NCBI GenBank assembly: GCA_015068285.1
Contig: SVKW01000001.1
Location: 134-64,133 of the forward strand
Reading direction: 5' to 3'
Source: Oscillospiraceae bacterium
GTDB taxonomy: Bacteria; Bacillota; Clostridia; Oscillospirales; Butyricicoccaceae
DNA length: 64,000 nucleotides
Shown here one piece after another: positions 8,194-60,544 of the stretch (positions are counted from its first letter, which is position 1; every line of letters starts with the position of its first letter). The translations under genes were made by a program, and so were the position numbers. The notes below the pieces were generated by a model. That model searched no databases. It saw only the letters and a program-made list of their open reading frames with translations, and had not been told where the DNA came from.

Positions 8194-8230
8194 TTCCTCT
8201 CTTGTTTTTTGTGGATCAATAAAGTTTCAT

Positions 8231-8423
8231 GCTGGGGCATTAAGGTGCCTGCGGCGCTATTTAATAAAACGCCCGTCGGGCTACACCTCATCCGTCAGCC
8301 TTACGGCTGCCACCTTCCCAAATGGGGTCCCCGGGCGGCCTGCCGTCTGGGGTATGAATCAAGGGGAAGGCTCTATCCCTCCGCCAATCTTTGATTGACA
8401 CCTCCCCTTACACAGGGGAGGCT
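8231..8423. repeat. REP/BIME-like hairpin mosaic inside the pur operon
   Basis: Modules: cattaaggtgcctgcggcgc, acacctcatcc+gtcagccttacggctg, ccttccc...ggggtccccgggcggcctgccgtctgggg...aggggaagg, and cctcccc-ttacaca-ggggagg. A near-copy of the composite lies at 20901-21046. Confidence 0.85.
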
Positions 8424-8429
8424 TGACCT

Positions 8430-40862: not shown

Positions 40863-41921
40863 TTACCCTACCATGCGTTTCATGGCGTCATAGTTGAATG
40901 AATGGAGCAGGGCGGTTTCTCTTGTGATTTTGCCCTGTTTCCACAGCTCGACAAGGCTTGAATCCATGGTTTTCATGCCCTGCGCCATACCTGAATACAT
41001 TATCGACTCAAGCTGATGCATTTTCGACTCTCTTATGAGATTTTTAACGGCATTTGTTGCCGTCATTATTTCAAAGGCAGGCACTCGTCCGCCCTCTTTG
41101 CCCTGCACAAGCTGCTGGGAAACGACAGCCTGAAGCACCATTGAAAGCTGGACGCGCACCTGTGTCTGCTGTCCCGGCGGAAAGGCATCTATTATTCTGT
41201 CGATGGCATTTGCCGCCCCCAATGTATGAAGGGTGGACAGCACAAGATGCCCTGTTTCTGCCGCTGTGATGGCGATATTTATCGTTTCGGCATCACGCAT
41301 TTCGCCTATGAAAATCACATCGGGCGACTGGCGAAGGGCAGATTTCAGCCCTGTCACATAATCTTTCGTATCAATGGAGATTTCTCTCTGGCTGACGATG
41401 CACCTGTTGTGCCTGTGCAGAAACTCGATAGGGTCCTCAAGTGTCATCACATGGCCCTCACGGGTGCTGTTTATGCGGTCGATAAGGCAGGCGAGAGTTG
41501 TGCTTTTGCCTGAGCCTGCAGGACCTGTCACAAGGACAAGTCCGCCTTTTTTGCGGCTTAAATCCATTACCGTTTCGGGAATGCCCAGCTTTTTATAATC
41601 GGGCAGGTTAAAATGCACGACACGCATTATAACGGCAAGGGAGCCCCGCTGTTTATATAAATTGACGCGGAAACGCCCCTCGCCGGGGAGAGAAAAGGAA
41701 AAATCATCGTCCCCTTCCTCGATATGCCGTGCCATTTCGCCCCTTTTTGCAAGGGCATAAATGCCCTCAACATAGCTCAGGGTGTGTTCCGGCTTTAAAA
41801 TTTCATTGCCCTGCCTGACAAGGCTGCCATTCATTTTGAAGCCGACAGGGCAGCCCGCCACAAGAAAGATGTCGGAGGCATTTTTAGCTATTGCGCTTTT
41901 GAGGATTTCTTCAAGGGTCAT
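40863..41921 (-). CDS. PilT/ComGA-like secretion ATPase
   Basis: Walker A GPAGSGKST, Walker B DVIFIGEMRD, His box GHLVLSTLHT. The ATG at 41919-41921 lies 1 nt after the upstream stop. An alternative TTG start is at 41945. Confidence 0.88.
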   Translation of the reverse strand: MTLEEILKSAIAKNASDIFLVAGCPVGFKMNGSLVRQGNEILKPEHTLSYVEGIYALAKRGEMARHIEEGDDDFSFSLPGEGRFRVNLYKQRGSLAVIMRVVHFNLPDYKKLGIPETVMDLSRKKGGLVLVTGPAGSGKSTTLACLIDRINSTREGHVMTLEDPIEFLHRHNRCIVSQREISIDTKDYVTGLKSALRQSPDVIFIGEMRDAETINIAITAAETGHLVLSTLHTLGAANAIDRIIDAFPPGQQTQVRVQLSMVLQAVVSQQLVQGKEGGRVPAFEIMTATNAVKNLIRESKMHQLESIMYSGMAQGMKTMDSSLVELWKQGKITRETALLHSFNYDAMKRMVG

Positions 41922-41922
41922 C

Positions 41923-42273
41923 TTATTTTCCGTCCCATAATTCAAGGATATTGCCGCCGTATTCGCCGTTTTGGTTGGGAATAAGGCGGTATTTTTCTAT
42001 TTCAAGCTTATTGTTTTCATTTTTTGCGCTGACATGGAGCGTCATGCTTTCGCCTTCGATTTCAAACTGGACTTTTTCGCCCTCATTCAGCTTTGCAAGC
42101 CGCTCCTGCGCCATCATATCGAGGGAATAATACTCGATAACGGCATTTTCCGCACGATTTGTCAGGGCGAGGTCGGCGTTTGCTGTCGAAAGGGCAAGAG
42201 ATGCAAGAGATGCCAGCATAATCACGGCAAAGGCTGTAAAGATGAGCGCCGCGCCGACGGGGGATTTTTTCAT
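41923..42273 (-). CDS. Small membrane-anchored protein (pseudopilin-like position)
   Basis: MKKSPVGAALIFTAFAVIMLASLASLAL... ATG after GGGAGG. ATGA overlap with the upstream ORF. Confidence 0.6.
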   Translation of the reverse strand: MKKSPVGAALIFTAFAVIMLASLASLALSTANADLALTNRAENAVIEYYSLDMMAQERLAKLNEGEKVQFEIEGESMTLHVSAKNENNKLEIEKYRLIPNQNGEYGGNILELWDGK

Positions 42274-42638
42274 CGGAGCGCCCTCCCGAATTCTATGGCG
42301 CACAGCTTTTCCGAGCCTGCTCTGAGGAATGGATAGGGGGCTGTTTTTTCGCAGGAGACCTTGGCTTCATAGAAGCTGTTTTTAATATTTCCTGTGATTT
42401 TCAGCACAAAAGCCGCCTTGTTTTCATCACATTCCTGCCAGTTTTCGTCGAAATATTGGGTAAAATCGCCTGTTTCAGCCTTTTCGATGGCATTCTGCGC
42501 TTTATATATGGCGTTGGTTTTGTCGGAGGACAAAACTGCGGTGTACCGCGCCGAGAGGAATATCCCCAGCGTGACCACGCCTGCAAATGCCAGTATCACT
42601 ATTGAAATTATCATTTCAAGCAGAGGAGCTTTTTGCAT
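42270..42638 (-). CDS. Pseudopilin-like protein
   Basis: MQKAPLLEMIISIVILAFAGVV: a short charged leader, then a hydrophobic helix with Glu at the position expected for prepilins, but no canonical G-F-T-L. Confidence 0.6.
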   Translation of the reverse strand: MQKAPLLEMIISIVILAFAGVVTLGIFLSARYTAVLSSDKTNAIYKAQNAIEKAETGDFTQYFDENWQECDENKAAFVLKITGNIKNSFYEAKVSCEKTAPYPFLRAGSEKLCAIEFGRALR

Positions 42639-42642
42639 TTTT

Positions 42643-43068
42643 TCACCTGTTTTTCGCAAAAATAAGGGGATAAACCCGATTATTTATGCCGATATTTATA
42701 TAAATCCTATGATTTTCTTCTGTCACTTCAAGGCTTTCCGCCGCGGCTATCTCATAGCCGTAATCGGGCTGAAACTCGGCATCTTCCTCGCCGAAATATT
42801 CCATAATCGCGCCGTTAAAATAATAAATACGGCTTATAAAGCCGTCTTCATCTGTAATTATCTGTCCGTTTTCCGCCGAAACCCTGTCCGATTGGCGGAT
42901 TTTTGTGGAAATATAGGAGAGCGCTGTGCGTGTCATGTGATTTTCTTCCATATCGGCGGCGATATTTTCATATACCGAGGCGGCTGTCGCTGTCAGCGCA
43001 AGGGTAAAGAGGGCAAATATCAGGCACAAGGTCAGGAAGAAAAGGCTTTGCAGGCTGTTTCTATTCAT
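42643..43068 (-). CDS. Small membrane-anchored protein of the pilus-like locus
   Basis: 141 aa with N-terminal hydrophobic helix SLFFLTLCLIFALFTLALTA. Overlaps its neighbours. Confidence 0.6.
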   Translation of the reverse strand: MNRNSLQSLFFLTLCLIFALFTLALTATAASVYENIAADMEENHMTRTALSYISTKIRQSDRVSAENGQIITDEDGFISRIYYFNGAIMEYFGEEDAEFQPDYGYEIAAAESLEVTEENHRIYINIGINNRVYPLIFAKNR

Positions 43069-43345
43069 GGGGAATCACCGTAATTTCAGGCAGAATATTG
43101 GAGGCAAAGGCATCATAAATGACGGTGTATCTGCCTTCGTCCACCATCAGCCCGTAATTTTCCTTGAGATATTCTATGTTGGCAGGGTAAAAGCCCTCGA
43201 TGGCATAGCAGGCGACCGCGCTTTTGTGTATGGCTTTTTCGAGATTTTCAAGCCGCTCGACTTCGAGCCTTTCATCGGCGGTATTCAGCAGTATTCCGAC
43301 TGTAATGATAAGAATTGCCGTAAAAATCAATGTTTTTCTGCTCAT
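43061..43345 (-). CDS. Small membrane-anchored protein of the pilus-like locus
   Basis: 94 aa with an N-terminal TM segment LIFTAILIITVGILL. Confidence 0.55.
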   Translation of the reverse strand: MSRKTLIFTAILIITVGILLNTADERLEVERLENLEKAIHKSAVACYAIEGFYPANIEYLKENYGLMVDEGRYTVIYDAFASNILPEITVIPHE

Positions 43346-43348
43346 TTT

Positions 43349-44395
43349 CTAACCTATTGCCGCCATAGCGCCTGTCAGCGGAAGGAGGACCGAAACTAAA
43401 ATCATGCCGACGATGAGGGCGATTATTCCCACAAGCGCAGGCTCGACAGCGTTTATAAATGCGGTTACGCTGTCTTCAAGCTCGTCTGTGTAGATGCCCG
43501 AAAGCTTTTTCATCGCCTCGTCGAGATTGCCCGTCTGCATTCCGACGGCCGCCATTCGCGTAAACATCAGGGGGAATGCCTCGGTTTTTTCCAAAAATTC
43601 GCCGAAGCTTATGCCGCTTGCCAGATCTGCGCGTAGGCTGTTTAATTTTTCCCCGACCGCCTTGTTTCCCATGATTTCAGCCGACATTGCCACCGCTTCA
43701 TCGAGGCAGGAGCCTGACGATAGGGCGAGGCTCATTGCCGATGAAAAGCGTACTGCTGAGCTTTTTAATGCTATATCCCTGATAAAAGGCAGTTTTACTG
43801 CAATTTTTTCAAGCTTCAACCTGCCTTTTTCGGTTTTTGAATATAAAATTACTGATATTGCGGCAAAAAATACGGCAATTATTATTCCAAAGGCGAAAAA
43901 GCCTGCCCCTTTGCCGAAATCCAGCATTGCCTGCGCCGCAGACGAAACTGTGCCGCCAAGCTGGCTGAATATTCGCCCGAACATGGGCAGGATTCTGAAC
44001 ACCAGCAGGGACACCACCAGCGACATTATGAAAAATAACGCCATGGGGTACATAACCGCCTGTTTCATGCCTGCTCTTATGCGTTTTTCCTTGTCATAAT
44101 GGCATGAAAGGGCGAGAAGCACCTCCTCAAGCCGTCCCGAAGCCTCGCCGAGAGCCACCATATTGCAGGCATATTCGGGAAAACAGCCTGCGTTGCGAAG
44201 GCTTTTTTCAAGGGTATTCTGTTTTTCAATGCTTTCGCCCACAAGGGCAAAGGCTCTTTGCAGTTTTTTGTTTTTCATATCGCTCATACCATCGGAAAAG
44301 AGGGCATACAGAGGCACACCTGCTCTGAGCAGGTATGCCGTCTGCAAACAAAAAAGGGAGATTTCTTCCTCGGTGAGCTGATTTTTATTCTTCAT
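43349..44395 (-). CDS. GspF/PilC-family platform protein
   Basis: Duplicated T2SS-F domains. ATG at 44393-44395 after GAGGAT. Confidence 0.85.
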   Translation of the reverse strand: MKNKNQLTEEEISLFCLQTAYLLRAGVPLYALFSDGMSDMKNKKLQRAFALVGESIEKQNTLEKSLRNAGCFPEYACNMVALGEASGRLEEVLLALSCHYDKEKRIRAGMKQAVMYPMALFFIMSLVVSLLVFRILPMFGRIFSQLGGTVSSAAQAMLDFGKGAGFFAFGIIIAVFFAAISVILYSKTEKGRLKLEKIAVKLPFIRDIALKSSAVRFSSAMSLALSSGSCLDEAVAMSAEIMGNKAVGEKLNSLRADLASGISFGEFLEKTEAFPLMFTRMAAVGMQTGNLDEAMKKLSGIYTDELEDSVTAFINAVEPALVGIIALIVGMILVSVLLPLTGAMAAIG

Positions 44396-44502
44396 TTTAT
44401 CCTCGATATTCCCCCTGCACATTGCCCCTTTCCCTGTATGGCGGAAAGGAAAAACCATAGCTCGGAAAGGGGCTTGTGCATCTTTATCGGTTAGTTTTTA
44501 CC

Positions 44503-45354
44503 CTAATATACGTATTTTATGCTGTAATTTGCTTTATTTGAGATGAATTTTGCTATGTAATCGCTGTTTTTAGCCGACGAAGTAAATGTGGGGTCCATTG
44601 TCGTCCAGCTTTCGCCGTCAAAATAGAGCTTGCCTGTTTTCACCCAGCCGATATCCTCGATATAGACCTCATTCCATGCGTGATAGCCGTTGCTCGGGGC
44701 AACATAGCCTGTCACAAGCTTTGTGGGAATGCCCAGAGAGCGTGTCATTGCCGCCATAACCGCCGCATAGTCAAAGCATATCCCCATCTTATTGGCAACC
44801 ACCATATCCACATCGGGAAGATAGCCGCTTTTGACAGTTTTCGCCTTCTGATGGTCATATTTCATGGCATTCGTCACATAACCATAGACGATATCCACCT
44901 TTTCCAGGTCGGTTTCGGCATCTTTTGTGATTTCGCGGGCTGTTTTTATAACATTGGACTCGTCTGTATAGTTTACATACTGGCTGCTGCGGAGAAAGGG
45001 CGAATGTGGGTTTTCCAGCTTCACATCGACATAAAACGTATTGAGCACGCTGTATTTTGTGCCTGTGATGTTGCGCAGGACACGCAGCTTATACTGCCCG
45101 TCACCCATCTGCAAAGGATAAACCTCGCTTTCGCCGTTATTTTTAAGGTCGTATGTATAACGCTCGCCGTCCTTCTCCGCCATCACCTTGATGCGCTTAT
45201 CTCCGCCGCCCGTATAGCAGGCGGAAAAATAGCCGTCCTTTGCCCCTGCGGCATCAATAGTGGCGCCGTTTGCAGTTTTCGATGTATCTGCGGCGCATAC
45301 AGCCGTGGTCACAGCAAGGCCGAGCGCCAGAATCAATGATATTATCCGTTTCAT
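44503..45354 (-). CDS. Secreted transglutaminase-like cysteine protease-fold protein
   Basis: Signal peptide MKRIISLILALGLAVTTAVCA. Core GICFDYAAVMAAM...GYHAWNEVY (Cys-His-Asp/Asn transglutaminase core). Confidence 0.8.
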   Translation of the reverse strand: MKRIISLILALGLAVTTAVCAADTSKTANGATIDAAGAKDGYFSACYTGGGDKRIKVMAEKDGERYTYDLKNNGESEVYPLQMGDGQYKLRVLRNITGTKYSVLNTFYVDVKLENPHSPFLRSSQYVNYTDESNVIKTAREITKDAETDLEKVDIVYGYVTNAMKYDHQKAKTVKSGYLPDVDMVVANKMGICFDYAAVMAAMTRSLGIPTKLVTGYVAPSNGYHAWNEVYIEDIGWVKTGKLYFDGESWTTMDPTFTSSAKNSDYIAKFISNKANYSIKYVY

Positions 45355-45394: not shown

Positions 45395-45595
45395 GGGGTG
45401 GAAAGATCCTTCGCTTCGATCAGGATGACAGGCTTTTTTCTTGCCTCCCTCTGACGAGGGAGGGGGACAACGAAGTGGTGGAAGGAGAGAAACCTATCTA
45501 ATCCGTCGGAGACACCGAAACTGTCAACTGTCCACTATCAACTTTCAACTGATGATATCAGGGGTGGAAATTCTTCACATTCGTTCAGAATGACA
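45395..45595. repeat. REP/BIME-like mosaic; contains a 76-nt unit repeated at 47703-47778
   Basis: gatccttcgcttcgatcaggatgaca, then 45442-45517 tgcctccctctgacgagggagggggacaacgaagtggtggaaggagagaaacctatctaatccgtcggagacaccg. Next come aactgtcaactgtccactatcaactttcaact and a second attcttcacattcgttcagaatgaca. Confidence 0.9.
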
Positions 45596-45619: not shown

Positions 45620-45666
45620 CCATAAAAAATAAGCTGTGACTATATTATAGCAAAATAGTCACAGCT
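45620..45666 (-). terminator. Terminator of the regulator cassette
   Basis: On the minus strand: agctgtgacta-ttttgctataata-tagtcacagct followed by TATTTTTTAT. Confidence 0.7.
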
Positions 45667-45719
45667 CGTCAAGTATTTTAGTCACAAATTATTATTTTAT
45701 GACTTTTATTTAATTTTAT

Positions 45720-46184
45720 TTATGACTTCCACGATGCCAGTTCATCGGTTTCCGAGGCTTCGCCCATAAGCTTCATAAGCTCAAGCTCGCTTCTGAAACG
45801 CTGGGTGACACCCTTTTCGACCCACTGCACAGTGCCCTGCCATGTGGCATTCTGCCTGAACTGCACCTGTACGATAAATGTCGCCTTATCCCCCTTTGGC
45901 TCAGGCTGGGACGCTATCTTCTTTTCTTCCATAAATGCCATCCTCTTTTCGTCATTATTCCTTTTCACGCCGAAAAATGAGCGTATTTCATGTGATGCCT
46001 GCGGAAAATTGCAGTAATCAAACACATTTTCAAGTATTTTCACGAAATCTGCCATGCACGAAACAGCATAGCCCTGCTTTTCCATACCTATATAAAGTCT
46101 GCCCTTAAAATCATAATTTTCCACGCCGTCAAGGCAGAAAACCGAGCGCACAGCCGCGCTGGTGTACTGTGGCTTTTTCACCAT
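45720..46184 (-). CDS. Hypothetical protein, partner of the SARP-like regulator
   Basis: 154 aa with the C-terminal segment ATFIVQVQFRQNATWQGTVQWVEKGVTQRFRSELELMKLM. GGAGGG RBS, 11 nt after the regulator stop. Confidence 0.6.
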   Translation of the reverse strand: MVKKPQYTSAAVRSVFCLDGVENYDFKGRLYIGMEKQGYAVSCMADFVKILENVFDYCNFPQASHEIRSFFGVKRNNDEKRMAFMEEKKIASQPEPKGDKATFIVQVQFRQNATWQGTVQWVEKGVTQRFRSELELMKLMGEASETDELASWKS

Positions 46185-46195
46185 AACACGCCCTC

Positions 46196-47395
46196 CTACA
46201 CAGCAGGCTCTATCGGCGTGACCTTACATTCAAGCGCCACAACACTGCCTCTGTAAACCTCGCTGAAGGCTTTGCGGATACGCTTTACGATAATATCGCT
46301 GTTTTCGTAAGTCACTGTCGGCAGCATTACGATATACTGTGACGGGCTGTAGCGTGAAACCACATCGCCTCGTCTGAGACTGCCCACAAGCACATCTCTG
46401 AGAATGTCCATCATCTGCTCGTTTTTATCCTGCGGCAGGCTTCCGCCCGAAACCGAGGAAACTGTAAACAGCGCAACGAAAATCGACTGTCCGCTTCTCT
46501 CAAGCATTCTTGCTTCTCTGCGGTATACATTCCTGAAAACCTCATATTCGCAGAAAAATGCGCCGCGAATGCCGTTTTCCCCTGCTTTTTCACGCAAATC
46601 GTCCTTGATGTTGAGAATATCGGCTTCGATTGCCTTTACACCCTTGACGATTTCATTGTAAATGGCGCGAAGCTCCTCCGAAGGGATAACGCCAAGCTCG
46701 CTGTAGAAAAGGTCGTTGACATATTCATAATATGCCATAGCCTCCTTTTTCCTGTCCATAGCAAAGAGGGCGCGCATTTTTGAGATGTGACAGCTTTCAA
46801 CAAATGGGTCTATTTTCGCCGCCTTTGTGGCGACAAGGTCGATTTCTTCAAATCTGCCCTCTTTTCTCAACAGCTCACAGCATTTTTCCACGCTGTCGAA
46901 GAAAATGTCCTTGTATTTTACAGCCATCGGCACCGCCCACTTTTCATAGACGCAGTTTTCAAGGAAATCGCCGTTATAAATATCAATGACCTTGCCGTAA
47001 TTTTCGGCTGTCGGCTCATTTTCAGCCTGAGCGTAGGCATTTTCCAGAAGCTCGGTGTCGATAATACACTCGATTTCGTCATTCCAGCGGCAGATGCCTC
47101 GCTTATTGATGATATATTCGCCGTTTTCACCTCTGCCGACAGTATCGAGCAGACCGCGCAGGCGGTATACAAGATTTTTCAGGGCATTATTCGGGTTGTC
47201 AATACCGTCCTCCCAGAGAATCTCCACAAGCTCCTCTGTTGTGACATCGCGGTGACGGTTTGCCAGCAGGTATTTGAGCAGCAGCCAGACCTGCTTTGTA
47301 CGGCTTTTTTCGTCGGTAAGCACATTTCCGTCATACTCCATGGAAAAGGCGCCCAGCATATTTATTTTTATAGGTTGTCTTCTGATTTCTGCCAT
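46196..47395 (-). CDS. SARP-type wHTH plus BTAD regulator with a C-terminal degenerate GGDEF domain
   Basis: N-terminus INMLGAFSMEYDGNVL...LLKYLLANRHRDVTTEELVEILW...LVYRLRGLL (OmpR/SARP wHTH) and a BTAD-like helical region. The C-terminus has ...SLRRGDVVSRYSPSQYIVMLP..., aligning with RxxD-x5-GGDEF. Confidence 0.7.
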   Translation of the reverse strand: MAEIRRQPIKINMLGAFSMEYDGNVLTDEKSRTKQVWLLLKYLLANRHRDVTTEELVEILWEDGIDNPNNALKNLVYRLRGLLDTVGRGENGEYIINKRGICRWNDEIECIIDTELLENAYAQAENEPTAENYGKVIDIYNGDFLENCVYEKWAVPMAVKYKDIFFDSVEKCCELLRKEGRFEEIDLVATKAAKIDPFVESCHISKMRALFAMDRKKEAMAYYEYVNDLFYSELGVIPSEELRAIYNEIVKGVKAIEADILNIKDDLREKAGENGIRGAFFCEYEVFRNVYRREARMLERSGQSIFVALFTVSSVSGGSLPQDKNEQMMDILRDVLVGSLRRGDVVSRYSPSQYIVMLPTVTYENSDIIVKRIRKAFSEVYRGSVVALECKVTPIEPAV

Positions 47396-47439
47396 AAGAC
47401 CTCCATCTGGTCACAAGTTTTTTATGTGCCCTAATTATA

Positions 47440-47496
47440 TCACAGAAAAACCACAAAATCAACTGCGTTTTTCGATTTTGTGACTTTTTCTTGTGA
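47440..47496. promoter_or_regulatory. Imperfect 21-23-nt inverted repeat built from TCACA-type heptads upstream of the regulator
   Basis: TCACAGAAAAACCACAAAATC, 13 nt, GATTTTGTGACTTTTTCTTGTGA. A further TCACAAG lies at 47411-47417. Confidence 0.5.
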
Positions 47497-47530
47497 CCGT
47501 TTTGGAGAAGCGGTGTGATAAATCATATTT

Positions 47531-47952
47531 AGTAAGGCGGAATGTCGAGGGCGCCATTCCCTACAAATAATCCGTGAAACCACTTCGCAGAGGCTGATGC
47601 CCACATCAGCCCGCAGGACGTTGACAAGCACCGTTCCCTGCATGGGATTGTATAAAAGGGAAAGAGATTCTTCACTTCGTTCAGAATGACAGAAAGTTTT
47701 CCTGCCTCCCTCTGACGAGGGAGGGGGACCACGAAGTGGTGGAAGGAGAGAAACCTATCCAATCCGTCGGAGACACCGCACCTCTTCACTTTTACGCGGC
47801 GAGAGCAAGCCCCCGCCCTACAGGACACCTCATCCGTCAGCTTCGCTGACACCTTCCCAAATGGGGTCCCCGACAAGCCTGCTTGTTGGGGTGTGAATCA
47901 AGGGGAAGGCAGAAATAAGATTGTTCGCAGGGGGCGGGCATTGCTCGTCTGC
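47531..47952. repeat. Mosaic of about 0.42 kb made of hairpin modules
   Basis: ggaatg-tcgagggcgc-cattcc-CTACA (47539-47565); ggctgatg-ccca-catcagcc; ggacg-ttgacaagcac-cgttcc-CTGCA; attcttcacttcgttcagaatgaca; the 76-nt unit at 47703-47778; ggcgagagcaagcccccgcc-CTACA; a long type B element; gggcgggcattgctcgtctgc. Confidence 0.9.
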
Positions 47953-49281: not shown

Positions 49282-49345
49282 GGTTTTTCCTTTCTTTTTG
49301 AATTTGGTGCGATATTTAATTGCAAGCAGGGATTTTATCTGTCTG

Positions 49346-49652
49346 CGGGAGCAGCAAGCGGCTCCCCTACAGATTTTAATAAATGTGGTATGCCTGAGGT
49401 GAGGATTAAATAAGGATTTACCTCTCCGTCACGCAGCAGCGTGCCACCTCTCCTGAAACAGGAGAGGCAAGTGAGATAGTACTAACCACAGGAGATCCTT
49501 CACTGCGTTCAGGATGACATATAGAGTTGTAGCGGGAGCAGCAAGCGGTCCCCCTACGGATTTTGATAAATGTGGTATGGATTAAATAAGGCGGAATGTC
49601 GAGGACGCCATTCCCTACAAAATCCCCCTTGCCTCCCTCGTCGGAGGGAGGC
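49346..49652. repeat. REP/BIME-like mosaic with an internal direct repeat of about 60 nt
   Basis: gggagc-agcaagcg-gctccc-CTACAgattttaataaatgtggtatg...gattaaataagg (from 49347) is repeated from 49534. Also ttacctctccgtcac-gcagca-gcgtgccacctctcc-tgaaaca-ggagagg, gatccttcactgcgttcaggatgaca, ggaatg-tcgaggacgc-cattcc-CTACA and cctccc-tcgtcgga-gggagg. Confidence 0.9.
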
Positions 49653-52070: not shown

Positions 52071-53321
52071 ATGAATATACATCTTAAAATACAGGAGCTC
52101 CGCAAGAAGGCAGGACTTTCTCAGGAGGGTTTTGCCGAGCGGCTTGGCGTTTCCCGTCAGGCTGTTTCCAAGTGGGAATCGGGCGCAAGCACTCCTGACA
52201 TTGAAAAAATAATCGCCATTTCCAAAATCTTTGAAATCTCTCTTTCCGAGCTTCTGACGGGCGAAAAGGAGGAGGCGCCTCTCTCCGCTGAGGCTCCGGC
52301 AGAAATCGCTGTAAACGATGAAAAATACGAGGAGCTTTTGCAGGACCATCTCCTGCAGATAGATGAGATGCTCAAAAAGGGAAAGAAAAAGCGTCTTATA
52401 TGGGGCATTGCCATTATTCTTGTTGTGGTCATTGTGATTTTCGGATATCTGATCCATCACAACAATGAGCTTCACGCTCTTGAAGCCAACATCAAAACAC
52501 TGCAAAGCGATATGTCCGGCATTGCCAATATACGCACCGACATAAACCACCAGATTTATTCCATCCGTCAGGAAATTTCCGACACCTTAAAGAAGGAATA
52601 CGGCATGGTAAGCGATTTTGACATCGAATACCGCGATATGAGTTTCCCTGACCGCACAGTTGTGCTTGATATTTACGCTTCACCAAGGCTGTGGAATAAC
52701 GGGGACAGAATAAGCTTTATCATCGAATCTGACGGAGAAAGGCTGACTGTCGACGGCATTTATGAAGACGGCACCGCGACGGCAACCGTTACTGTGCCGC
52801 TCACCGACAACATTCAGGTTTCCGCCTGCATTATAAGCGGCGGCACTACCGTGCAGGAAAGGCTTGACGACATTCGCTCGCTTCTCAGCCTTCATCTTTT
52901 AGATGTTGACGGACACGGCTCAATAAGCTCGACTTACACCGAAGGCAGCGACAGTTTTACCCTTGATGGCTCTGTCTCGGTTTTTGTAAGCACCAAGCTT
53001 TACGATGAAAACAAGTCGGCAAAATCCCAGATAAAATCCCTCACTCTTGAGTTTATCGAAAACGGAAAGGCAACTCAGACTGTCGATATGCTTGAGCTTA
53101 AGCCCGACTTCAATGCCGCCGAAATGTGCAATTTCAACTATTCGGTGGATACCATTGAGCGGCCGCTCAAAGCGGGGGACACCTATGAATTTGTTGTCAC
53201 CCTCACCGACCTTAACAATGTGACATACCGCGGTGTGTTGGAGCGCATTGAAATAGGCGATAATCTCACCATCGAGCACGATAAGTCATATTACGGCAGT
53301 TTTGAGGCAATTCTGCCATAA
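52071..53321 (+). CDS. Membrane-tethered XRE-HTH one-component regulator, paralog A
   Basis: N-terminal HTH (LSQEGFAERLGVSRQAVSKWESG), one TM segment (LIWGIAIILVVVIVIFGYLI), then an extracytoplasmic beta-rich domain of about 290 aa with no recognised family. Confidence 0.75.
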   Translation: MNIHLKIQELRKKAGLSQEGFAERLGVSRQAVSKWESGASTPDIEKIIAISKIFEISLSELLTGEKEEAPLSAEAPAEIAVNDEKYEELLQDHLLQIDEMLKKGKKKRLIWGIAIILVVVIVIFGYLIHHNNELHALEANIKTLQSDMSGIANIRTDINHQIYSIRQEISDTLKKEYGMVSDFDIEYRDMSFPDRTVVLDIYASPRLWNNGDRISFIIESDGERLTVDGIYEDGTATATVTVPLTDNIQVSACIISGGTTVQERLDDIRSLLSLHLLDVDGHGSISSTYTEGSDSFTLDGSVSVFVSTKLYDENKSAKSQIKSLTLEFIENGKATQTVDMLELKPDFNAAEMCNFNYSVDTIERPLKAGDTYEFVVTLTDLNNVTYRGVLERIEIGDNLTIEHDKSYYGSFEAILP

Positions 53322-55894: not shown

Positions 55895-56005
55895 ACAAAA
55901 ATCGAGCGGAAGTTGGTGGTATTTTCGCCGATTTTTCACTAAAATCGAATCATAATAAATAAGGTTGTGCACACCTCACCATGTCCCAAGGAGGTAACTT
56001 TATCT

Positions 56006-57268
56006 ATGAATATTCATCTTAAAATACAGGAGCTTCGCAAGAATGCAGGGCTTTCTCAGGAGGCTCTTGCCGAGCAGCTTGGCGTTTCCCGTCAGGCGGT
56101 TTCCAAATGGGAGTCGGGCATAAATATTCCCGACATCGACAAGATTATCGCCATTTCAAAAATCTTCGGCGTTTCCCTTTCCGAGCTCCTTACAGGCGAA
56201 AAGGAGAATGTTTCGGTTGCCGCTGAAACTCCTGTCCCCGACGAAAAATATGAGGAGCTTTTGCAGCAGCATCTTATGCAGGTCGATGCCATGCTCAAAG
56301 AATCGGGCAGAAAAAAGCGCTCAGGCTGGAGCATTGCTTTCCGAATTATTGCGGCGGTCGTCATCTGCTATCTGGTGCTTTTCTATGTCGATAAGCTTCA
56401 GCGTATGGAAAACAATATAAATAATCTCCAGAGCAATGTGGGCAACATCCGCACCGACATAAATCATCAGATTTATTCGATTCAGAAGGAGATTTCCGAA
56501 AGCTTAAAGAAGGAATACGGTCTTATCAGCGACTACACTCTCGATTACCGCGATATGGATTTCCCTCGCCGCACGGTTGTGCTCGATATTTCGGCTTCGC
56601 CGAGACTCTGGAATGAGGGCGACAGCATGGCTTTTATTGTTGAGGCCGACGGCGAGCAGCTTTCCTGCGAGGGAGTTTACAACAACGGCACGGTTTATGC
56701 CGAGATTGAGGTACCTCTCTCGGACAATATTCAGGTTTCGGCGCTTATCACCAACGGCGGCACTGTCAAGCAGGAGAAAATCGACGAGCTTCATGAGCTT
56801 CTCAGTATGCATCTACTTGAAGTGAACGGTCACGGCTCGATTCGCTCGTCACGCGTACTTGGTGATGACCAGCTGACTATGTCGGGCGATATTACTGTTT
56901 ATGCTCACAGTAGGCTTTATGACGAAAGTCAGCCTGTTTTGTCGCGCATAAAGTCGGCAACTTTTGAGCTTATCGAAAACGGCAAGACAACTCAGACTGT
57001 CGATTTGCTGGCGGAAAGTATGAAAAACCGCCCTTATGACAGTCCTATCGACAATGTCCGTGCCGATTTTGATTATACTGTAGGCACTATCGAGCGCACC
57101 ATGAAGGCGGGTGACACTTTTGATTATGTCGTGACGATTGTCGACAACAACGATGTCACTTATAAGGGTATTCTCGAAAGCATTATGGTGACAGACGACC
57201 TCTCTGTCGAGCACAACAAGCGCGACTACGGCGACTTTGAAGTAACTCTGCCTGATAAGGTTGAGTAA
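56006..57268 (+). CDS. Membrane-tethered XRE-HTH one-component regulator, paralog B
   Basis: Same architecture as 52071-53321. The first 67 residues are 57/67 identical by hand alignment. ATG at 56006. Confidence 0.75.
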   Translation: MNIHLKIQELRKNAGLSQEALAEQLGVSRQAVSKWESGINIPDIDKIIAISKIFGVSLSELLTGEKENVSVAAETPVPDEKYEELLQQHLMQVDAMLKESGRKKRSGWSIAFRIIAAVVICYLVLFYVDKLQRMENNINNLQSNVGNIRTDINHQIYSIQKEISESLKKEYGLISDYTLDYRDMDFPRRTVVLDISASPRLWNEGDSMAFIVEADGEQLSCEGVYNNGTVYAEIEVPLSDNIQVSALITNGGTVKQEKIDELHELLSMHLLEVNGHGSIRSSRVLGDDQLTMSGDITVYAHSRLYDESQPVLSRIKSATFELIENGKTTQTVDLLAESMKNRPYDSPIDNVRADFDYTVGTIERTMKAGDTFDYVVTIVDNNDVTYKGILESIMVTDDLSVEHNKRDYGDFEVTLPDKVE

Positions 57269-57601: not shown

Positions 57602-60163
57602 TTACGCCAGTATGATTTCCTTTAGTTTCAGCAGGTTATTGCCGTTGATATTGAGGAAAAACGGGGTGTTTGCAGGGATTCCGCCGTCATAAGTGCCGCA
57701 GTATTCGAGAAACTCCGCTGCCGACGATGTTTCATAGAACAAATCGGCGTCAGGCTCTGTAAACTGACGATTCCAGTCGACAAACTCGAAAACCGCGCCC
57801 GAAACCTTGAGTGAAATGCTTTCCTCAGTTTCGTTGTGGATATAATAGCCGCTCGGCAGGTCAAGTGCAGGTTCGAGCTCCAGCTCGGCAATGCGCTCGG
57901 TGTCGTCTGTTGTGATATACTCCACAGGGTCGACAACCATTGTGCTGCCGTCAAAGCTCTTTATCAACGCAGGGGTAAAACCACCCATATTTTCGGTAAT
58001 ATCAAGCAGAAGCTCTGCCCAAGGAATGTATTTGTTAATATAGTCCCTGCCTCTGCTCTGTTCAATATTTCTGGCATGAGCCTTTAATTCAGCATACCAC
58101 TCCGCGCCGCTTACATATTCTATCTGCGGAGTTTCATAAGTGACCTGTTTCACTATGTCGTCACAAACGCGGGCTATCACTTCCGCTTTAAGTCCAAAGC
58201 CAAAAACATTGGCTTCAAAGCCGCGAAAAGCATAACTTAAAGTATACTTATTCATAGATAATAACTGTTCGTATTCATCTTTGTGAGCTGAGATATACTT
58301 TTCCGTGCTTGAATGTTCAAGCGGCTCAGAAATTATAGTATTGAAAAGTCTGTCGATATTTTCGTCAGATGTGGTATCAAGGCTTTGCGGCGGCTGAAGC
58401 ATCATAATGTGTGTCAGAGGATATGACCTTTGAATTTCACCTGTATTATAGTCTACAATACTGTATGTCATATCTGCCCTGCACATGAAAATGCTTTCTG
58501 TTTTGCTGAGATAGCTTGCGTCGCTTCCGCCGCCTCCTGTTACCTTAAGCAACGAGTAATTTGTTCCATTTATATAAAGTCCTGCACCTATATCGCTGAA
58601 CCTCTTATTATCAGGATTATAATTGAAATAAGCACTCACACCATGAACTACATCCACTTCACCCGCAGTAGTGTTTATGGTTTCAAGAAGATATTCTGTC
58701 TGTATCCATTCTTTTTCAGAAGAAAAATATGTATTTTTAACTGTATCTTCTCTGATAAAGCCGACATTTTCCTTAAAATAGGCAATAATTCCGCCCCAAT
58801 CATCATTTTTATACATATCGTATGTATCGCCAAGGAACTTGTCGGTAATATTCTCTCCATCTTTATCGAAAACATTTTTCCTGCCGTTTCTGTAAAAATC
58901 ATTGAGAACATTTTTCAGCAAATCATAGGCTCCGTAGCTATCGCTCGCTTCGCTCAGCGGAAGCGTCGTAACTATCTTGTGGCTTGTATTATCAGCGTAA
59001 CGGTTTCCTTTAAGACTGTCAATAATATTTTCCATCAGTCCATCCGTGCCCGATTCCTTGATAATATCATGATACTTATTTATTTCATAATCGGTCAGCT
59101 GATGAGGATTCATGGCATAAGTGTATATATCACCGCTTATACCGTTATACTGCACCGCATATTTATTGAGCACATCGGCAACTGTCTGATATTTTTCTTC
59201 TGTGGTGCCCTTTTCAACGCCCGAAAAGCCTATCACAATGCATAAAACTGCGATAACGGCAACAACAGCCACAGCCCAGATGACATTCTTACGCTTATTT
59301 GCGATAGCCGTAATGCGCTCCTTCATCTCTTTTGCGCCGCCCGAAATCGTAGCCGCCATAGACAGGCGGTTATGAGGGCGGTTTTTCGCCATTTCGATGA
59401 GAGTAACGCCATAGTCTCTGCTGCCGTTTTCCCCCAGTATTTCAAGTGCAAGCTCATCGCAGGCAAGCTCGCCGTCACGCTTGGCTGTGAAAAAGCTGAG
59501 CCAGACGAGAGGATTCCACCACCACATTACGACACACACCATGCCGAGGAAGTTCCAGAGGTTGTCCCAATGGCGGTAGTGGCACATTTCGTGGGTGATG
59601 ACATTATTTATATGGCGCTCGTCACAGGCGGCTTCTGTCAGGTAAATCGCAGGCTTAATAACGCCGAAAAGGCATGGCGTTGTCAGCACATTTGTCTTAT
59701 AGACGGGCAGATTATGTGAGGTTTCAAGCTTTACTCTGTCCTTTTTAAGCCTTGTGTAAAGGCTTATATTTACATAGCTAAACCAGAGGGCAAGGACGCC
59801 TGCTCCTGCGATATGTACGATACTGAACACCTTCGCCCAGTCGATATTTTTCTCCACAGGCTGTGGGGAAACGGGCTGTGGCGGTGTTATATTTTCGATA
59901 GTCGGAACTTGGGAAATCTCCGGATTTTCCGCTGTTATCGGCGGATAATAGGTTTCTCTGTCTGCCGTTTCGCCGATGTCATGGCTTATCGGCAGAGGGA
60001 TTTCTATGCCAAGGTCAAAAATCGGCATTGGCATAAGCAGGCGCACCAGCACAATTAGCCACAGGGCGTAAATAAATCTGCGGCTTGTGCCTCTGGCGAA
60101 AAGAGCGCGGATGATAAAGACCGCGATTATGAGAAATGATGAGCCGAGGAAGTTTGTGAGCAT
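57602..60163 (-). CDS. BlaR1/MecR1-like M56 peptidase signal transducer with a large uncharacterised extracellular domain
   Basis: An N-terminal TM region with HEMCHYRHWDN (HExxH), then about 550 aa lacking penicillin-binding motifs on inspection. Confidence 0.8.
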   Translation of the reverse strand: MLTNFLGSSFLIIAVFIIRALFARGTSRRFIYALWLIVLVRLLMPMPIFDLGIEIPLPISHDIGETADRETYYPPITAENPEISQVPTIENITPPQPVSPQPVEKNIDWAKVFSIVHIAGAGVLALWFSYVNISLYTRLKKDRVKLETSHNLPVYKTNVLTTPCLFGVIKPAIYLTEAACDERHINNVITHEMCHYRHWDNLWNFLGMVCVVMWWWNPLVWLSFFTAKRDGELACDELALEILGENGSRDYGVTLIEMAKNRPHNRLSMAATISGGAKEMKERITAIANKRKNVIWAVAVVAVIAVLCIVIGFSGVEKGTTEEKYQTVADVLNKYAVQYNGISGDIYTYAMNPHQLTDYEINKYHDIIKESGTDGLMENIIDSLKGNRYADNTSHKIVTTLPLSEASDSYGAYDLLKNVLNDFYRNGRKNVFDKDGENITDKFLGDTYDMYKNDDWGGIIAYFKENVGFIREDTVKNTYFSSEKEWIQTEYLLETINTTAGEVDVVHGVSAYFNYNPDNKRFSDIGAGLYINGTNYSLLKVTGGGGSDASYLSKTESIFMCRADMTYSIVDYNTGEIQRSYPLTHIMMLQPPQSLDTTSDENIDRLFNTIISEPLEHSSTEKYISAHKDEYEQLLSMNKYTLSYAFRGFEANVFGFGLKAEVIARVCDDIVKQVTYETPQIEYVSGAEWYAELKAHARNIEQSRGRDYINKYIPWAELLLDITENMGGFTPALIKSFDGSTMVVDPVEYITTDDTERIAELELEPALDLPSGYYIHNETEESISLKVSGAVFEFVDWNRQFTEPDADLFYETSSAAEFLEYCGTYDGGIPANTPFFLNINGNNLLKLKEIILA

Positions 60164-60166
60164 AGT

Positions 60167-60544
60167 TTACTCCTTTCTCATGCTGTCGAGGATGGCGTAA
60201 AGCTCGTCGATATCCTCCTTTTTGAGACCGCCTGCCCCTGCCATGCTCGATATCATCATGCCGACAGAGCCATCGTAGACCTTGTTTAAAAAGTGACCTG
60301 TTTCCTGCATTTCTGCGTCATTTTTCGTTAAAATCGGGTAGAAAAACTTGTTTCTGCCCTTGTTTTCGGCGCGTACTGCGCCTTTCTCAGCCATTCGGCT
60401 GAGCATTGTGGAAACTGTGCCCTTCGTCCATTTTGTTTCGTCAAAAAGGATTTCGACCAGCTCTGTAAGGCTTTGAGGGGCGTTTTCCCACAGCTTCTGC
60501 ATGATTTTCCATTCGCCGTCCGAGAGGATTGGGTGGTTATTCAT
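60167..60544 (-). CDS. BlaI/MecI/CopY-family repressor
   Basis: 125-aa winged-helix protein: ...EWKIMQKLWENAPQSLTELVEIL...KGTVSTMLSRMAEKG... Confidence 0.88.
   Translation of the reverse strand: MNNHPILSDGEWKIMQKLWENAPQSLTELVEILFDETKWTKGTVSTMLSRMAEKGAVRAENKGRNKFFYPILTKNDAEMQETGHFLNKVYDGSVGMMISSMAGAGGLKKEDIDELYAILDSMRKE

What the first reader, a model, noticed from the sequence alone, without database searches (positions are those of the whole stretch)
45720..47395. SARP/BTAD regulator fused to a catalytically dead GGDEF domain that keeps the RxxD I-site, with a small unknown partner
- The 399-aa protein begins with an OmpR/SARP winged helix (LGAFSMEYDGNVL...ELVEILW...LVYRLRGLL) and a BTAD-like helical region.
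- It ends in a domain that aligns with GGDEF cyclases: ...SLRRGDVVSRYSPSQYIVMLP...
- GGDEF itself is replaced by SPSQY, and the upstream metal-binding Asp region is also lost (FVALFTVSS).
- The allosteric I-site pattern RxxD, exactly five residues before the signature (RRGD-VVSRY-SPSQY), is intact.
- This is the hallmark of GGDEF domains repurposed as c-di-GMP receptors. It would make the protein a c-di-GMP-responsive SARP-type transcription factor.
- The gene is followed 11 nt later by a 154-aa protein of no recognised family (C-terminal ...FIVQVQFRQNATWQGTVQWVEKG...FRSELELMKLM) and one shared terminator.
Basis: inference. Interest (0 to 1): 0.65.

Follow-up and report, generated by a model that had tools for sequence, protein, structure and literature searches.

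The report
SARP regulator with dead GGDEF sensor
A gut Clostridia bacterium encodes a transcription factor whose tail is a broken c-di-GMP-making enzyme domain that has lost catalysis but keeps every c-di-GMP-binding residue, and together with a small unknown protein it sits in front of pilus and adhesin genes in hundreds of species, so it is a likely undescribed switch for surface attachment.

Summary
On the minus strand, 46196-47395 encodes a 399-aa protein and 45720-46184, 11 nt further on, a 154-aa protein.

**Regulator.** It has a SARP winged helix, a BTAD domain, and a shortened, catalytically dead GGDEF fold.
- Profile E-value against diguanylate cyclases of known structure: 2.4e-9.
- The AlphaFold model (pLDDT 91.5) matches EmbR/AfsR, then GGDEF domains.
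- The profile alignment places RRGD on the I-site RxxD and SPSQY on GGDEF.
- In 119 homologues, R341, D344, R300 and Q353 are invariant, and R372 (the PleD R390 position) is Arg in 115.

**Partner.**
- It belongs to an unnamed family of about 3000 sequence clusters.
- It has two beta-beta-beta-alpha repeats and a near-invariant FRQNATWQG block.
- No Pfam, PDB or fold match was found.
- It adjoins the regulator in 48 of 78 informative partner loci, and in 5 of 7 regulator loci.

**Context.** The pair heads a transglutaminase plus type IV pilus-like operon here. Elsewhere it heads giant adhesins or sortases.

**Reading.** Most likely it is a c-di-GMP-sensing regulator of surface structures. Ligand binding, the direction of control and the partner's role are inferred, not shown. 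I rate it a new variant of known kinds.

The parts
46196..47395 (-). Gene for the 399-aa SARP-BTAD-degenerate GGDEF regulator
   Evidence: ORF. Pfam Trans_reg_C and BTAD. AF2 pLDDT 91.5. Foldseek EmbR 4e-12 and AfsR 7e-12, then GGDEF cyclases.
47060..47371 (-). OmpR/SARP winged-helix DNA-binding domain (aa 9-112)
   Evidence: Pfam PF00486 at aa 33-101, E 3.9e-9. AfsR alignment. Secondary structure of the model.
46640..47059 (-). BTAD helical domain (aa 113-252)
   Evidence: Pfam PF03704, E 8.6e-18. Helices 113-252 in the model.
46214..46558 (-). Degenerate, C-terminally truncated GGDEF (palm) domain, aa 280-394, with the layout alpha-beta-alpha-beta-beta-alpha-beta
   Evidence: Profile against PDB cyclases, 2.4e-9. 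Foldseek DosC/TM GGDEF domains at rmsd 2.7-3.8 A over 120-137 columns. 29 of 30 members hit PF00990.
46364..46375 (-). RRGD (aa 341-344), the I-site RxxD motif
   Evidence: Aligned on RRSD of TM1788. The 4urq I-site mutant differs at the residue aligned with R341. R341 and D344 are invariant in 119 of 119. Coordinates checked.
46334..46348 (-). SPSQY (aa 350-354), which replaces GGDEF. The family signature is S-x-[ST]-Q-[YF].
   Evidence: Aligned on GGDEF of TM1788. Q353 is invariant in 119 of 119 and S350 occurs in 113 of 119.
46280..46282 (-). R372, 31 residues after the I-site Arg. This is the position of PleD R390 and DgcR R237 (third residue of the primary I-site).
   Evidence: Arg in 115 of 119, Lys in 4. 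Spacing compared with PleD R359/R390 and DgcR R206/R237 as given in PMC7288161 and PMC8041772. The equivalence is inferred from the ungapped alignment.
45720..46184 (-). Gene for the 154-aa partner protein: two beta-beta-beta-alpha repeats, an FPQ..RSF linker motif, and an FRQNATWQG block
   Evidence: ORF. Family alignment. AF2 model. Internal repeat by hhalign, E 3.8e-5. 3009 cluster representatives. Adjacency to the regulator.
47410..47497 (-). Promoter region of the regulator gene. Direct repeats GTCACAA at 47497-47491 and 47484-47478; -35 TTGATT at 47462-47457; TG-extended -10 TATAAT at 47439-47434; TGTGAC at 47415-47410 in the leader.
   Evidence: Promoter scan, 10 of 12 matches plus TG. 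These blocks are conserved in L001 and L002 while the flanks are not. Coordinates checked.
45620..45703 (-). Promoter/operator and hairpin between the partner gene and the target operon. GTCATAA at 45703-45697 and TTGTGAC at 45687-45681; -35 TTGACG at 45672-45667; 12-bp perfect palindrome at 45666-45655 and 45643-45632 spanning the -10 TATAAT at 45649-45644; T-run at 45629-45624.
   Evidence: Promoter scan, 11 of 12 matches plus TG. Conserved in L001 and L002, partly in L003. RNA hairpin z -6.4. 3 of the 9 AGTCACA sites in the window lie here.
44503..45354 (-). First gene of the presumed target operon: a transglutaminase-like lipoprotein
   Evidence: Pfam Transglut_core, 6.8e-26. Homologues lie next to the cassette in 23 loci.
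40863..44458 (-). Type IV pilus/Com-like genes: T2SS-F platform (43349-44458), four small pilin-like genes (43061-43345, 42643-43068 with DUF4860, 42270-42659, 41923-42303), and T2SS-E ATPase (40863-41945)
   Evidence: Pfam. The same cluster lies beside the cassette in 21 of 87 loci, including L087, where it directly follows a 36%-identical regulator.

Best explanation
This is a two-gene regulatory cassette for cell-surface structures in gut Clostridia.

**The regulator.** The 399-aa protein is a SARP-type DNA-binding factor (winged helix plus BTAD). Its C-terminal sensor is a GGDEF domain that can no longer make c-di-GMP.
- GGDEF has become SxSQY.
- The beta1 metal-binding Asp has become Thr.
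- The guanine-binding loop and the last helix-strand are missing.
- The complete product-inhibition site survives: R341-x-x-D344, R372, and R300 at the secondary-site position.

**Proposed mechanism (inferred).** Intercalated c-di-GMP dimers bind this site and cross-link two sensor domains, as they do in diguanylate cyclases. This would set the oligomeric state and DNA binding of the factor at paired GTCACA/TGTGAC boxes that flank its own promoter and the promoter of the adjacent operon (transglutaminase plus type IV pilus-like genes). Surface-appendage expression would then follow c-di-GMP level.

**The partner (inferred).** The 154-aa protein is translationally coupled to the regulator and mildly acidic. 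It has a conserved linear motif in a flexible linker. It most likely acts as a protein-binding co-regulator or antagonist of the factor, not as a DNA binder.

**Shown versus inferred.**
- Shown: the domain folds, the motif register, family-wide conservation, gene linkage, the conserved neighbourhood, and the conserved cis-elements in close relatives.
- Inferred: ligand identity, cross-linking, which protein binds the boxes, the sign of regulation, and the partner's role.
For: **Fold.**
- The AF2 model has pLDDT 91.5.
- Foldseek gives EmbR 4e-12 and AfsR 7e-12, then more than 40 GGDEF structures at E 1e-7 to 3e-4.

**Register.** The family profile hits TM1788 cyclase at 2.4e-9. LRRGDVvsRYSatQY aligns on RRSDVVARYGGDEF. 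The I-site mutant entry 4urq differs at the residue aligned with R341.

**Conservation in 119 homologues of 32-87% identity.**
- R341, D344, R300 and Q353: 119 of 119.
- R372: 115 of 119.
- PleD uses R359, D362, R390 and R313. DgcR uses R206, D209 and R237, with the same +31 spacing.

**Architecture.** The domain subfamily was found only together with BTAD.

**Linkage.**
- The partner lies directly after the regulator in 46 of 78 informative partner loci. One more is divergent and one is a fused ORF.
- The partner is adjacent in 5 of 7 regulator-anchored loci, in two orientations.

**Targets.**
- The pilus-like cluster lies beside the cassette in 21 of 87 loci, in three layouts.
- The next gene is a signal-peptide protein of >=700 aa in 32 of 80 loci. 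Examples carry VWA, MucBP or PA14 domains or are sortases.
- One relative is followed by a GGDEF-EAL enzyme.

**Cis-elements.** They are conserved against diverged flanks.
Against: - No binding data exist. I-site conservation is necessary but not sufficient.
- Q353, S350, T311 and C282 on the former active-site face are as conserved as the I-site. The I-site model does not explain them.
- No c-di-GMP enzyme, PilZ protein or riboswitch was seen in the parts of the 64-kb window that were checked.
- Only 1 of 87 loci has a canonical GGDEF gene nearby.
- Whether these genomes make c-di-GMP could not be checked.
- Both promoters are near-consensus, which is unlike classical SARP-activated promoters.
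- The box spacings (13 and 23 nt) are not the 11/22 nt typical of SARPs.
- No box motif is shared across the whole family.
- The equivalence of R300 to PleD R313 rests on position only. PMC8041772 notes that such secondary-site arginines are not strictly homologous.
Confidence: 0.5

Rival explanations
1. The dead GGDEF domain is a protein-interaction or dimerisation module with no nucleotide ligand. It docks the small partner, for example the partner's conserved FPQ..RSF linker motif in the vestigial active-site groove. The partner carries the signal.
For: - The two genes are tightly linked in several orientations.
- Invariant Q353 and conserved S350, T311 and C282 lie on the former catalytic face.
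- The partner has an invariant short motif (P61, R68, F70) in a segment predicted to be disordered.
- The partner is mildly acidic, with median pI 5.85.
- There is a precedent of a small activator bound to a GGDEF protein: SiaC-SiaD, 7e6g, among the fold hits.
Against: - It does not explain why exactly the residues aligned with the c-di-GMP-contacting I-site positions (R341, D344, R372, R300) are the invariant ones.
- Regulators without an adjacent partner (L082, L087) keep them too.
- Partners often occur with no regulator within 8 kb (24 of 78 loci).
Confidence: 0.25
2. The retained arginine/aspartate site binds a different nucleotide: (p)ppGpp, GTP, cGAMP or c-di-AMP, not c-di-GMP.
For: - GGDEF-fold domains are known to bind other nucleotides. 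A PleD structure with ppGpp, 9g85, is among the fold hits.
- There is a weak PADLOC match to an oligonucleotide cyclase.
- There is no local c-di-GMP gene context in most loci.
Against: - The conserved residues match the c-di-GMP I-site set specifically.
- The substrate-site residues needed for GTP binding are missing: the beta1 Asp, the guanine-binding loop, and the last helix carrying the phosphate-binding Lys/Arg.
Confidence: 0.12
3. The small protein is the main regulator of the surface loci, for example a locus-specific anti-regulator or transcription-processivity factor encoded as the first gene of giant adhesin operons. Its pairing with the SARP factor is secondary.
For: - In 24 of 78 partner loci no SARP gene lies within 8 kb, yet the partner is typically followed within 10-90 nt by a 1200-2600-aa secreted protein.
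- In L055, L071 and L076 it is the last gene after the pilus ATPase.
- The family is very large, with 3009 clusters.
- Tandem paralogues occur within loci.
Against: - It has no recognisable DNA-, RNA- or RNAP-binding fold.
- Its pI is neutral to acidic.
- The majority of loci still pair it with the SARP factor.
- This reading does not exclude the c-di-GMP model for the regulator.
Confidence: 0.2

Closest known systems
SARP regulators with a C-terminal sensor domain: EmbR of Mycobacterium tuberculosis (wHTH-BTAD-FHA) and AfsR of Streptomyces (wHTH-BTAD-NB-ARC-TPR)
   Same: The N-terminal winged helix plus BTAD has the same fold (Foldseek 4e-12 and 7e-12; sequence 1.7e-5). The design is the same: a SARP core followed by a signal-receiving domain.
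   Different: - The sensor is a degenerate GGDEF domain, not an FHA or NB-ARC domain.
- The hosts are Clostridia, not Actinobacteria.
- The neighbours are pili and adhesins, not antibiotic or cell-wall genes.
- The promoters here are near-consensus and carry palindromic as well as direct boxes.
Degenerate-GGDEF I-site c-di-GMP receptors: PelD (P. aeruginosa), PopA (Caulobacter), YdaK (B. subtilis), PssE (Listeria). Named from my own knowledge.
   Same: Catalytic motif lost and RxxD kept. The output is surface or matrix production. YdaK and PssE show that the principle works in Firmicutes.
   Different: - Those receptors are membrane or localisation factors that act post-translationally. None is fused to a DNA-binding domain.
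- The domain here is also truncated after beta4 and has its own invariant S-x-[ST]-Q-[YF] signature.
Diguanylate cyclases with product inhibition (PleD, DgcR, TM1788, WspR)
   Same: GGDEF fold. I-site residues are in the same register and spacing. The proposed cross-linking of two domains by dimeric c-di-GMP is borrowed from them.
   Different: No catalytic residues remain. The cross-link would control a transcription factor, not switch off an enzyme.
PucR/CdaR-type regulators with a GGDEF-like domain (Pfam PF17853 GGDEF_2)
   Same: Transcription factors that carry a non-catalytic GGDEF-like domain of unknown ligand.
   Different: - They have a different DNA-binding domain (HTH_30) and domain order.
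- Only 1 of 30 C-domains here touches PF17853, and weakly (0.039), whereas 29 of 30 hit PF00990.
GSU1771 of Geobacter sulfurreducens, a SARP-family regulator of biofilm and pili (PMC10599522)
   Same: A SARP-type factor outside Actinobacteria that controls biofilm and electron-transfer genes, and pilin genes (own knowledge).
   Different: Its sensor is a receiver domain, not a GGDEF-like domain. No small partner is described.
c-di-GMP-binding transcription factors (FleQ, VpsT, BldD, MrkH, Clp). Named from my own knowledge.
   Same: The proposed logic is the same: c-di-GMP level sets transcription of adhesion or motility genes.
   Different: None uses a GGDEF I-site as the sensing module, and none is a SARP.

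Membership tests
SARP (Streptomyces antibiotic regulatory protein) family | N-terminal OmpR-type winged-helix DNA-binding domain | tested here: met
   PF00486 E 3.9e-9, above cut-off. Aligns with AfsR and EmbR.
SARP (Streptomyces antibiotic regulatory protein) family | Bacterial transcriptional activator domain (BTAD) directly after the winged helix | tested here: met
   PF03704 E 8.6e-18. Foldseek TM-score (by target) 0.68-0.71 to AfsR chains over about 258 columns.
SARP (Streptomyces antibiotic regulatory protein) family | Binds direct heptamer repeats with 11-nt phasing at the -35 region and activates transcription | tested here: inconclusive
   Direct GTCACAA repeats exist upstream of its own -35, but at 13-nt phasing. 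The target promoter has boxes at 23-nt spacing plus palindromes, and both promoters are near-consensus. Binding was not tested.
GGDEF domain (Pfam PF00990) | Scores above Pfam's gathering threshold | tested here: not met
   14.8 bits (full protein) or 17.0 bits (isolated domain) against a cut-off of 23.8. Some homologues carry a precomputed PF00990 hit, and the best member reaches E 4.8e-9.
GGDEF domain (Pfam PF00990) | GGDEF/palm fold | tested here: met
   Foldseek gives rmsd 2.7-3.8 A over 120-137 columns to DosC, TM and V. cholerae GGDEF domains. The core is present, but the last helix-strand is absent.
Active diguanylate cyclase | GG[DE]EF signature, beta1 metal-binding Asp and GTP-binding residues | tested here: not met
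   The signature is SPSQY. No member of 119 has E or D at the fourth position; all have Q. T311 stands in place of the Asp, the guanine loop is replaced by a variable loop, and the C-terminal helix is absent.
I-site c-di-GMP receptor (degenerate GGDEF type) | RxxD five residues before the signature, conserved in the family | tested here: met
   Register confirmed against TM1788 and its I-site mutant. Conserved in 119 of 119.
I-site c-di-GMP receptor (degenerate GGDEF type) | Additional I-site arginine(s) (PleD R390 / PelD R402 position; secondary-site Arg) | tested here: met
   R372 at +31 is Arg in 115 of 119. R300 before beta1 is invariant in 119 of 119. The positions were compared with PleD and DgcR numbers from PMC7288161 and PMC8041772. 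The equivalence of R300 is positional only.
I-site c-di-GMP receptor (degenerate GGDEF type) | Binds c-di-GMP, and binding is lost in RxxD mutants | not testable with these tools
   Needs a biochemical assay.
PilZ domain (considered for the partner) | RxxxR and [DN]xSxxG motifs on a six-stranded beta-barrel | tested here: not met
   NATWQG resembles [DN]xSxxG only superficially. There is no RxxxR motif, no Pfam PilZ hit, and no PilZ structure among the Foldseek matches listed.

The most novel reading that the evidence does not exclude
The SARP-dead-GGDEF factor and the small two-repeat protein would form a previously unrecognised c-di-GMP-gated regulator/anti-regulator pair. This pair would be the main protein-based switch for pili and giant adhesins across gut Clostridia.
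- The small protein would be a new fold and family of about 3000 clusters.
- Because it is encoded at the head of many separate adhesin loci, it would act in trans on the SARP factors of other loci, so that a cell displays one surface structure at a time. This would be analogous to UpxY/UpxZ or PapB-type cross-talk.
Probability: 0.15. Interest if true: 0.85.

Novelty: new variant of a known kind. Interest (0 to 1): 0.64.

Why it matters
- In Clostridia, transcription control by c-di-GMP is known almost entirely through riboswitches, and protein receptors are scarce (own knowledge).
- A SARP factor that reuses the cyclase feedback site as its sensor would be a new class of c-di-GMP effector and a new output for the I-site.
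- The cassette sits in front of type IV pilus-like operons, sortases and giant VWA/MucBP adhesins. It occurs in Oscillospiraceae, Lachnospiraceae, Christensenellales and Peptococcaceae. It is therefore a concrete handle on how abundant gut commensals decide to attach.
- It also assigns a first context to an unnamed family of about 3000 protein clusters.

Tried and rejected
- **Locus search from the regulator side.** The search for related loci with the regulator alignment (A1) and with its C-domain alignment (A3) failed because no stretch was conserved enough. The forward co-occurrence test therefore rests on only seven look-ups.
- **Partner identity.** All of these gave nothing: Pfam, NCBIfam, PHROGs and PADLOC; PDB by sequence and by profile (only designed repeat proteins, which are spurious); Foldseek against PDB and BFVD (best E 0.11 and 0.006 with TM about 0.25). 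A PilZ reading was considered and rejected.
- **Shared operator motif.** A family-wide search gave only AT-rich hexamers, so the GTCACA boxes are clade-specific.
- **c-di-GMP enzymes near the cassette.** A profile search found none. A GG[DE]EF regex found one real case, L084, in 87 loci.
- **Riboswitches.** Rfam found only a tRNA in the window.
- **Rosetta-stone fusion.** L045 has a 605-aa ORF that joins both proteins through a 50-aa junction of poor sequence. This is probably a lost stop, so I did not count it as evidence.
- **Other architectures for the domain subfamily.** The search returned only fragments, with BTAD wherever an N-terminus was present.
- **Transcript evidence.** Only faecal and gut DNA metagenomes hold the sequence.
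- **Literature.** No paper combines SARP/BTAD with a degenerate GGDEF domain or mentions the NATWQG motif.
- **Defence-system reading.** Rejected.
Full report
**1. Observation**

Both ORFs are present as described.
- The 399-aa ORF is at 46196-47395 and the 154-aa ORF at 45720-46184, both on the minus strand.
- They are 11 nt apart. The first gene's TAG stop lies inside a TAGGAGG ribosome-binding site for the second, an arrangement consistent with translational coupling.

**2. The regulator's N-terminal two thirds**

- Pfam finds Trans_reg_C (aa 33-101, 3.9e-9) and BTAD (aa 122-249, 8.6e-18).
- NCBIfam and PDB sequence searches give AfsR and EmbR.
- An AlphaFold2 model built on 69 homologues has mean pLDDT 91.5.
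- Its best Foldseek matches are EmbR (4e-12) and AfsR in its transcription-initiation complex (7e-12; TM-score by target 0.68-0.71).
- The SARP assignment is therefore firm.

**3. The C-terminal domain is a GGDEF fold, dead and truncated**

- The single sequence scores only 14.8 bits against PF00990, below the cut-off of 23.8.
- A 30-member profile of the C-domain hits solved diguanylate cyclases at 2.4e-9 (TM1788), 3.2e-8 (SiaD) and 4.7e-7 (DgcR).
- 29 of 30 members touch PF00990 at E<=0.1.
- After the SARP hits, Foldseek lists more than 40 GGDEF structures. Rmsd is 2.7-3.8 A over 120-137 columns for isolated domains.
- The model's layout is helix 284-301, strand 305-314, helix 322-339, hairpin 345-350/353-359, helix 363-380, strand 386-394. 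This is the palm core. The protein ends where a canonical domain continues with a last helix and strand.
- In the profile alignment, family T311 stands on the beta1 metal-binding Asp (VFVLFVD in TM1788). The FKxxND..GH..GD stretch is replaced by a short variable loop.
- No member of 119 has an acidic residue at the catalytic position of GGDEF; all have Gln. Cyclase activity can be excluded.

**4. The inhibitory site is intact and is the most conserved feature**

- The profile alignment places LRRGDVvsRYSatQY on RRSDVVARYGGDEF of TM1788.
- The deposited I-site mutant of that enzyme (4urq) differs from the wild type at the residue aligned with R341.
- Across 119 homologues sharing 32-87% identity with the query, conservation is:
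  - R341, D344, R300 and Q353: 119 of 119
  - R372: Arg in 115, Lys in 4
  - L340, S350, R296, C282, F287 and Y291: nearly invariant
- PleD's I-site is R359, D362 and R390, plus R313 from the neighbouring domain (PMC7288161). DgcR uses R206, D209 and R237, plus an arginine on the helix before beta1 (PMC8041772).
- The +31 spacing from the RxxD arginine to the third arginine is the same here (341 to 372).
- R300 sits just before beta1, like PleD R313. This last equivalence is positional only.
- RxxD is not needed for the GGDEF fold; many active cyclases lack it (own knowledge). Its invariance in a family that has let the catalytic residues go therefore argues for a retained ligand site.

**5. 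Family**

- The first search returned 148 homologues, of which the 120 listed are nearly all 390-420 aa. They come from Oscillospiraceae, Lachnospiraceae, Syntrophomonadaceae and other Clostridia, and none has a functional name.
- A search with the C-domain profile alone found only fragments, which carry BTAD wherever an N-terminus is present. No other architecture appeared.
- The window itself comes from a faecal metagenome organism. Its nearest relative is an Oscillospiraceae MAG (L002): the partner is 79% identical and the upstream neighbour 96% identical.

**6. The partner**

- The 154-aa protein matches nothing in Pfam, NCBIfam, PADLOC or PDB, by sequence or by profile. Its only PHROG match is at chance level (E 0.2).
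- Its family is large. 3009 representatives of 50%-identity clusters score E<=1e-3 and 335 score E<=1e-30. Nearly all are 140-180 aa, and some are 280-300 aa with duplicated matches.
- The alignment shows a near-invariant block, KATFIVQVQFRQNATWQGTIxWxExxKTQxFRSxLELxKLMDxA, and an FPQ..RSF motif.
- The AlphaFold model (pLDDT 71) shows two beta-beta-beta-alpha units, at aa 12-57 and 101-144. A low-confidence linker carrying FPQ..RSF joins them.
- A profile-profile comparison aligns the two halves in register over 45 columns (E 3.8e-5), which indicates an internal duplication.
- Foldseek finds no significant match in PDB or BFVD.
- The family is neutral to acidic: median pI is 5.85, and 73% of members are below 7. 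This argues against a general nucleic-acid binder.

**7. Linkage of the two genes**

- *Reverse test.* Scanning species-representative genomes for RQNATWQG gave 386 loci encoding a relative, of which 80 were kept. Of the 78 informative loci:
  - in 46 the SARP-GGDEF gene lies directly upstream on the same strand (median gap 168 nt)
  - in 1 it is divergent and adjacent
  - in 1 it is joined in one ORF (probably a lost stop)
  - in 6 it is elsewhere within 8 kb
  - in 24 it is absent
- *Forward test.* Of seven regulator homologues on long contigs, five have the partner adjacent: three downstream and two divergent upstream.
- The association is strong, holds in more than one orientation, and is not obligatory.

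**8. What the cassette sits next to**

In the window the next genes on the same strand are:
- a transglutaminase-like lipoprotein
- a T2SS-F platform protein
- four small pilin-like proteins, one with DUF4860
- a 360-aa T2SS-E ATPase

Together these form a compact type IV pilus/Com-like operon.

Homologues of this cluster lie beside the cassette in 21 of 87 loci, in three layouts:
- downstream of the partner
- divergent from the regulator
- between the regulator and the partner (L055, L071, L076)

In L087 a 36%-identical regulator is followed directly by the same operon, with no partner.

Elsewhere:
- The gene after the partner is a signal-peptide protein of 700-2600 aa in 32 of 80 loci.
- Sampled examples carry VWA, MucBP, PA14, Flg_new or DUF7601/DUF5979 domains. 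Others are sortases or an S26 signal peptidase.
- 58 of 87 loci contain at least one of these features.
- One relative is followed by a GGDEF-EAL enzyme.

The pair is therefore a regulator cassette of surface-appendage loci.

**9. Cis-elements**

- *Regulator promoter.*
  - Two direct GTCACAA repeats (47497-47478) lie upstream of TTGATT-17-TGTGATATAAT.
  - A TGTGAC box lies in the leader.
  - All are conserved in L001 and L002, while the flanks have diverged.
- *Target promoter.*
  - Between the partner gene and the pilus operon lies a near-consensus promoter: TTGACG, 17 nt, then a TG-extended TATAAT.
  - GTCATAA/TTGTGAC lies upstream of it.
  - A perfect 12-bp palindrome (AGCTGTGACTAT/ATAGTCACAGCT) spans the -10 and is followed by a T-run.
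  - As RNA the palindrome is a strong hairpin (z -6.4), so it can terminate the regulator transcript. As DNA it is an operator-like site over the core promoter.
- *Scope and implication.*
  - No hexamer is enriched family-wide, so the boxes are clade-specific.
  - Strong core promoters with boxes over the -10 suggest repression or anti-repression, not classical SARP activation.

**10. Mechanism**

The best-supported reading has four steps.
1. The dead GGDEF domain is a c-di-GMP sensor that uses the retained feedback site.
2. By analogy with cyclases, dimeric c-di-GMP would bridge the primary site of one domain (R341, D344, R372) and R300 of another.
3. This would set the oligomeric state of the SARP factor, and so its occupancy of paired boxes.
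4. The partner would modulate the factor by protein contact.

Steps 1-4 are inference. The anatomy, conservation, linkage and context are shown.

Two observations remain unexplained:
- the invariant Gln and the Ser/Thr residues on the old catalytic face
- the many stand-alone partners before giant adhesin genes

These keep the rival readings alive: a partner-docking domain, another nucleotide, or a partner-centred regulation.

**11. Comparison and novelty**

- The protein is a member of the SARP family. Its C-terminus has the GGDEF fold, but it fails the Pfam cut-off and all the catalytic criteria.
- It resembles EmbR in design (a SARP core plus a sensor). It resembles PelD, PopA, YdaK and PssE in principle (dead GGDEF, live I-site).
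- I found no description of this fusion or of the partner family.
- I rate it a new variant of known kinds, attached to an uncharacterised protein family.

Noticed in passing
window 45404-45529, 47665-47790, 47527-47567, 49581-49621, 49345-49392, 49532-49579: Mosaic intergenic repeat elements (MITE/REP-like): a 126-nt unit in two copies (87% identical), and 41-nt and 48-nt units in two copies each. One 126-nt copy is inserted in the leader between the target promoter and the transglutaminase gene. It is absent at that place in the close relatives L001 and L002.
   Followed up: partly
L084 7209-10232: In a relative from a Eubacteriales MAG, the regulator-partner pair is followed by a 1007-aa protein with intact GGEEF and EAL domains. 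This is the only direct genomic link to c-di-GMP metabolism among the 87 loci.
   Followed up: partly
L045 6645-8462: A single 605-aa ORF covers both the regulator and the partner, joined by about 50 residues that look like translated intergenic DNA. It is probably a lost stop codon or an assembly error, not a true fusion.
   Followed up: partly
L017, L033, L041, L024, L052, L069, L070, L079, L086; proteins P0163, P0172 and others: The partner family occurs as tandem or flanking paralogues within single loci, for example one copy before and one after the regulator. It also occurs as 280-300-aa proteins with the whole unit duplicated.
   Followed up: no
L055, L071, L076 (regulator about 1300-2500, partner about 7965-8444): An alternative layout: the regulator first, then the whole transglutaminase and type IV pilus-like operon, then the partner as the last gene right after the T2SS-E ATPase. 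This hints that the partner may also act on the pilus machinery.
   Followed up: no
window 52071-53321 and 55967-57268 (+): Two paralogous proteins of about 420 aa with XRE-type HTH domains and nearly identical N-termini lie 4 kb apart, with an FtsX/MacB-type permease gene between them. Their function is unknown.
   Followed up: no
window 25779-26690 (-), 57602-60544 (-): An RNPP-family (peptide-sensing) HTH regulator at 25779-26690. At 57602-60163, a BlaR1-type M56 sensor gene, followed at 60167-60544 by a small gene that may encode a BlaI-like repressor (not scanned).
   Followed up: no
window 44503-45354 (-) and homologues in 23 loci: A transglutaminase-like lipoprotein is consistently the first gene of this type IV pilus-like operon, and is duplicated in L087. 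This is an unusual and unexplained component for such a cluster.
   Followed up: partly
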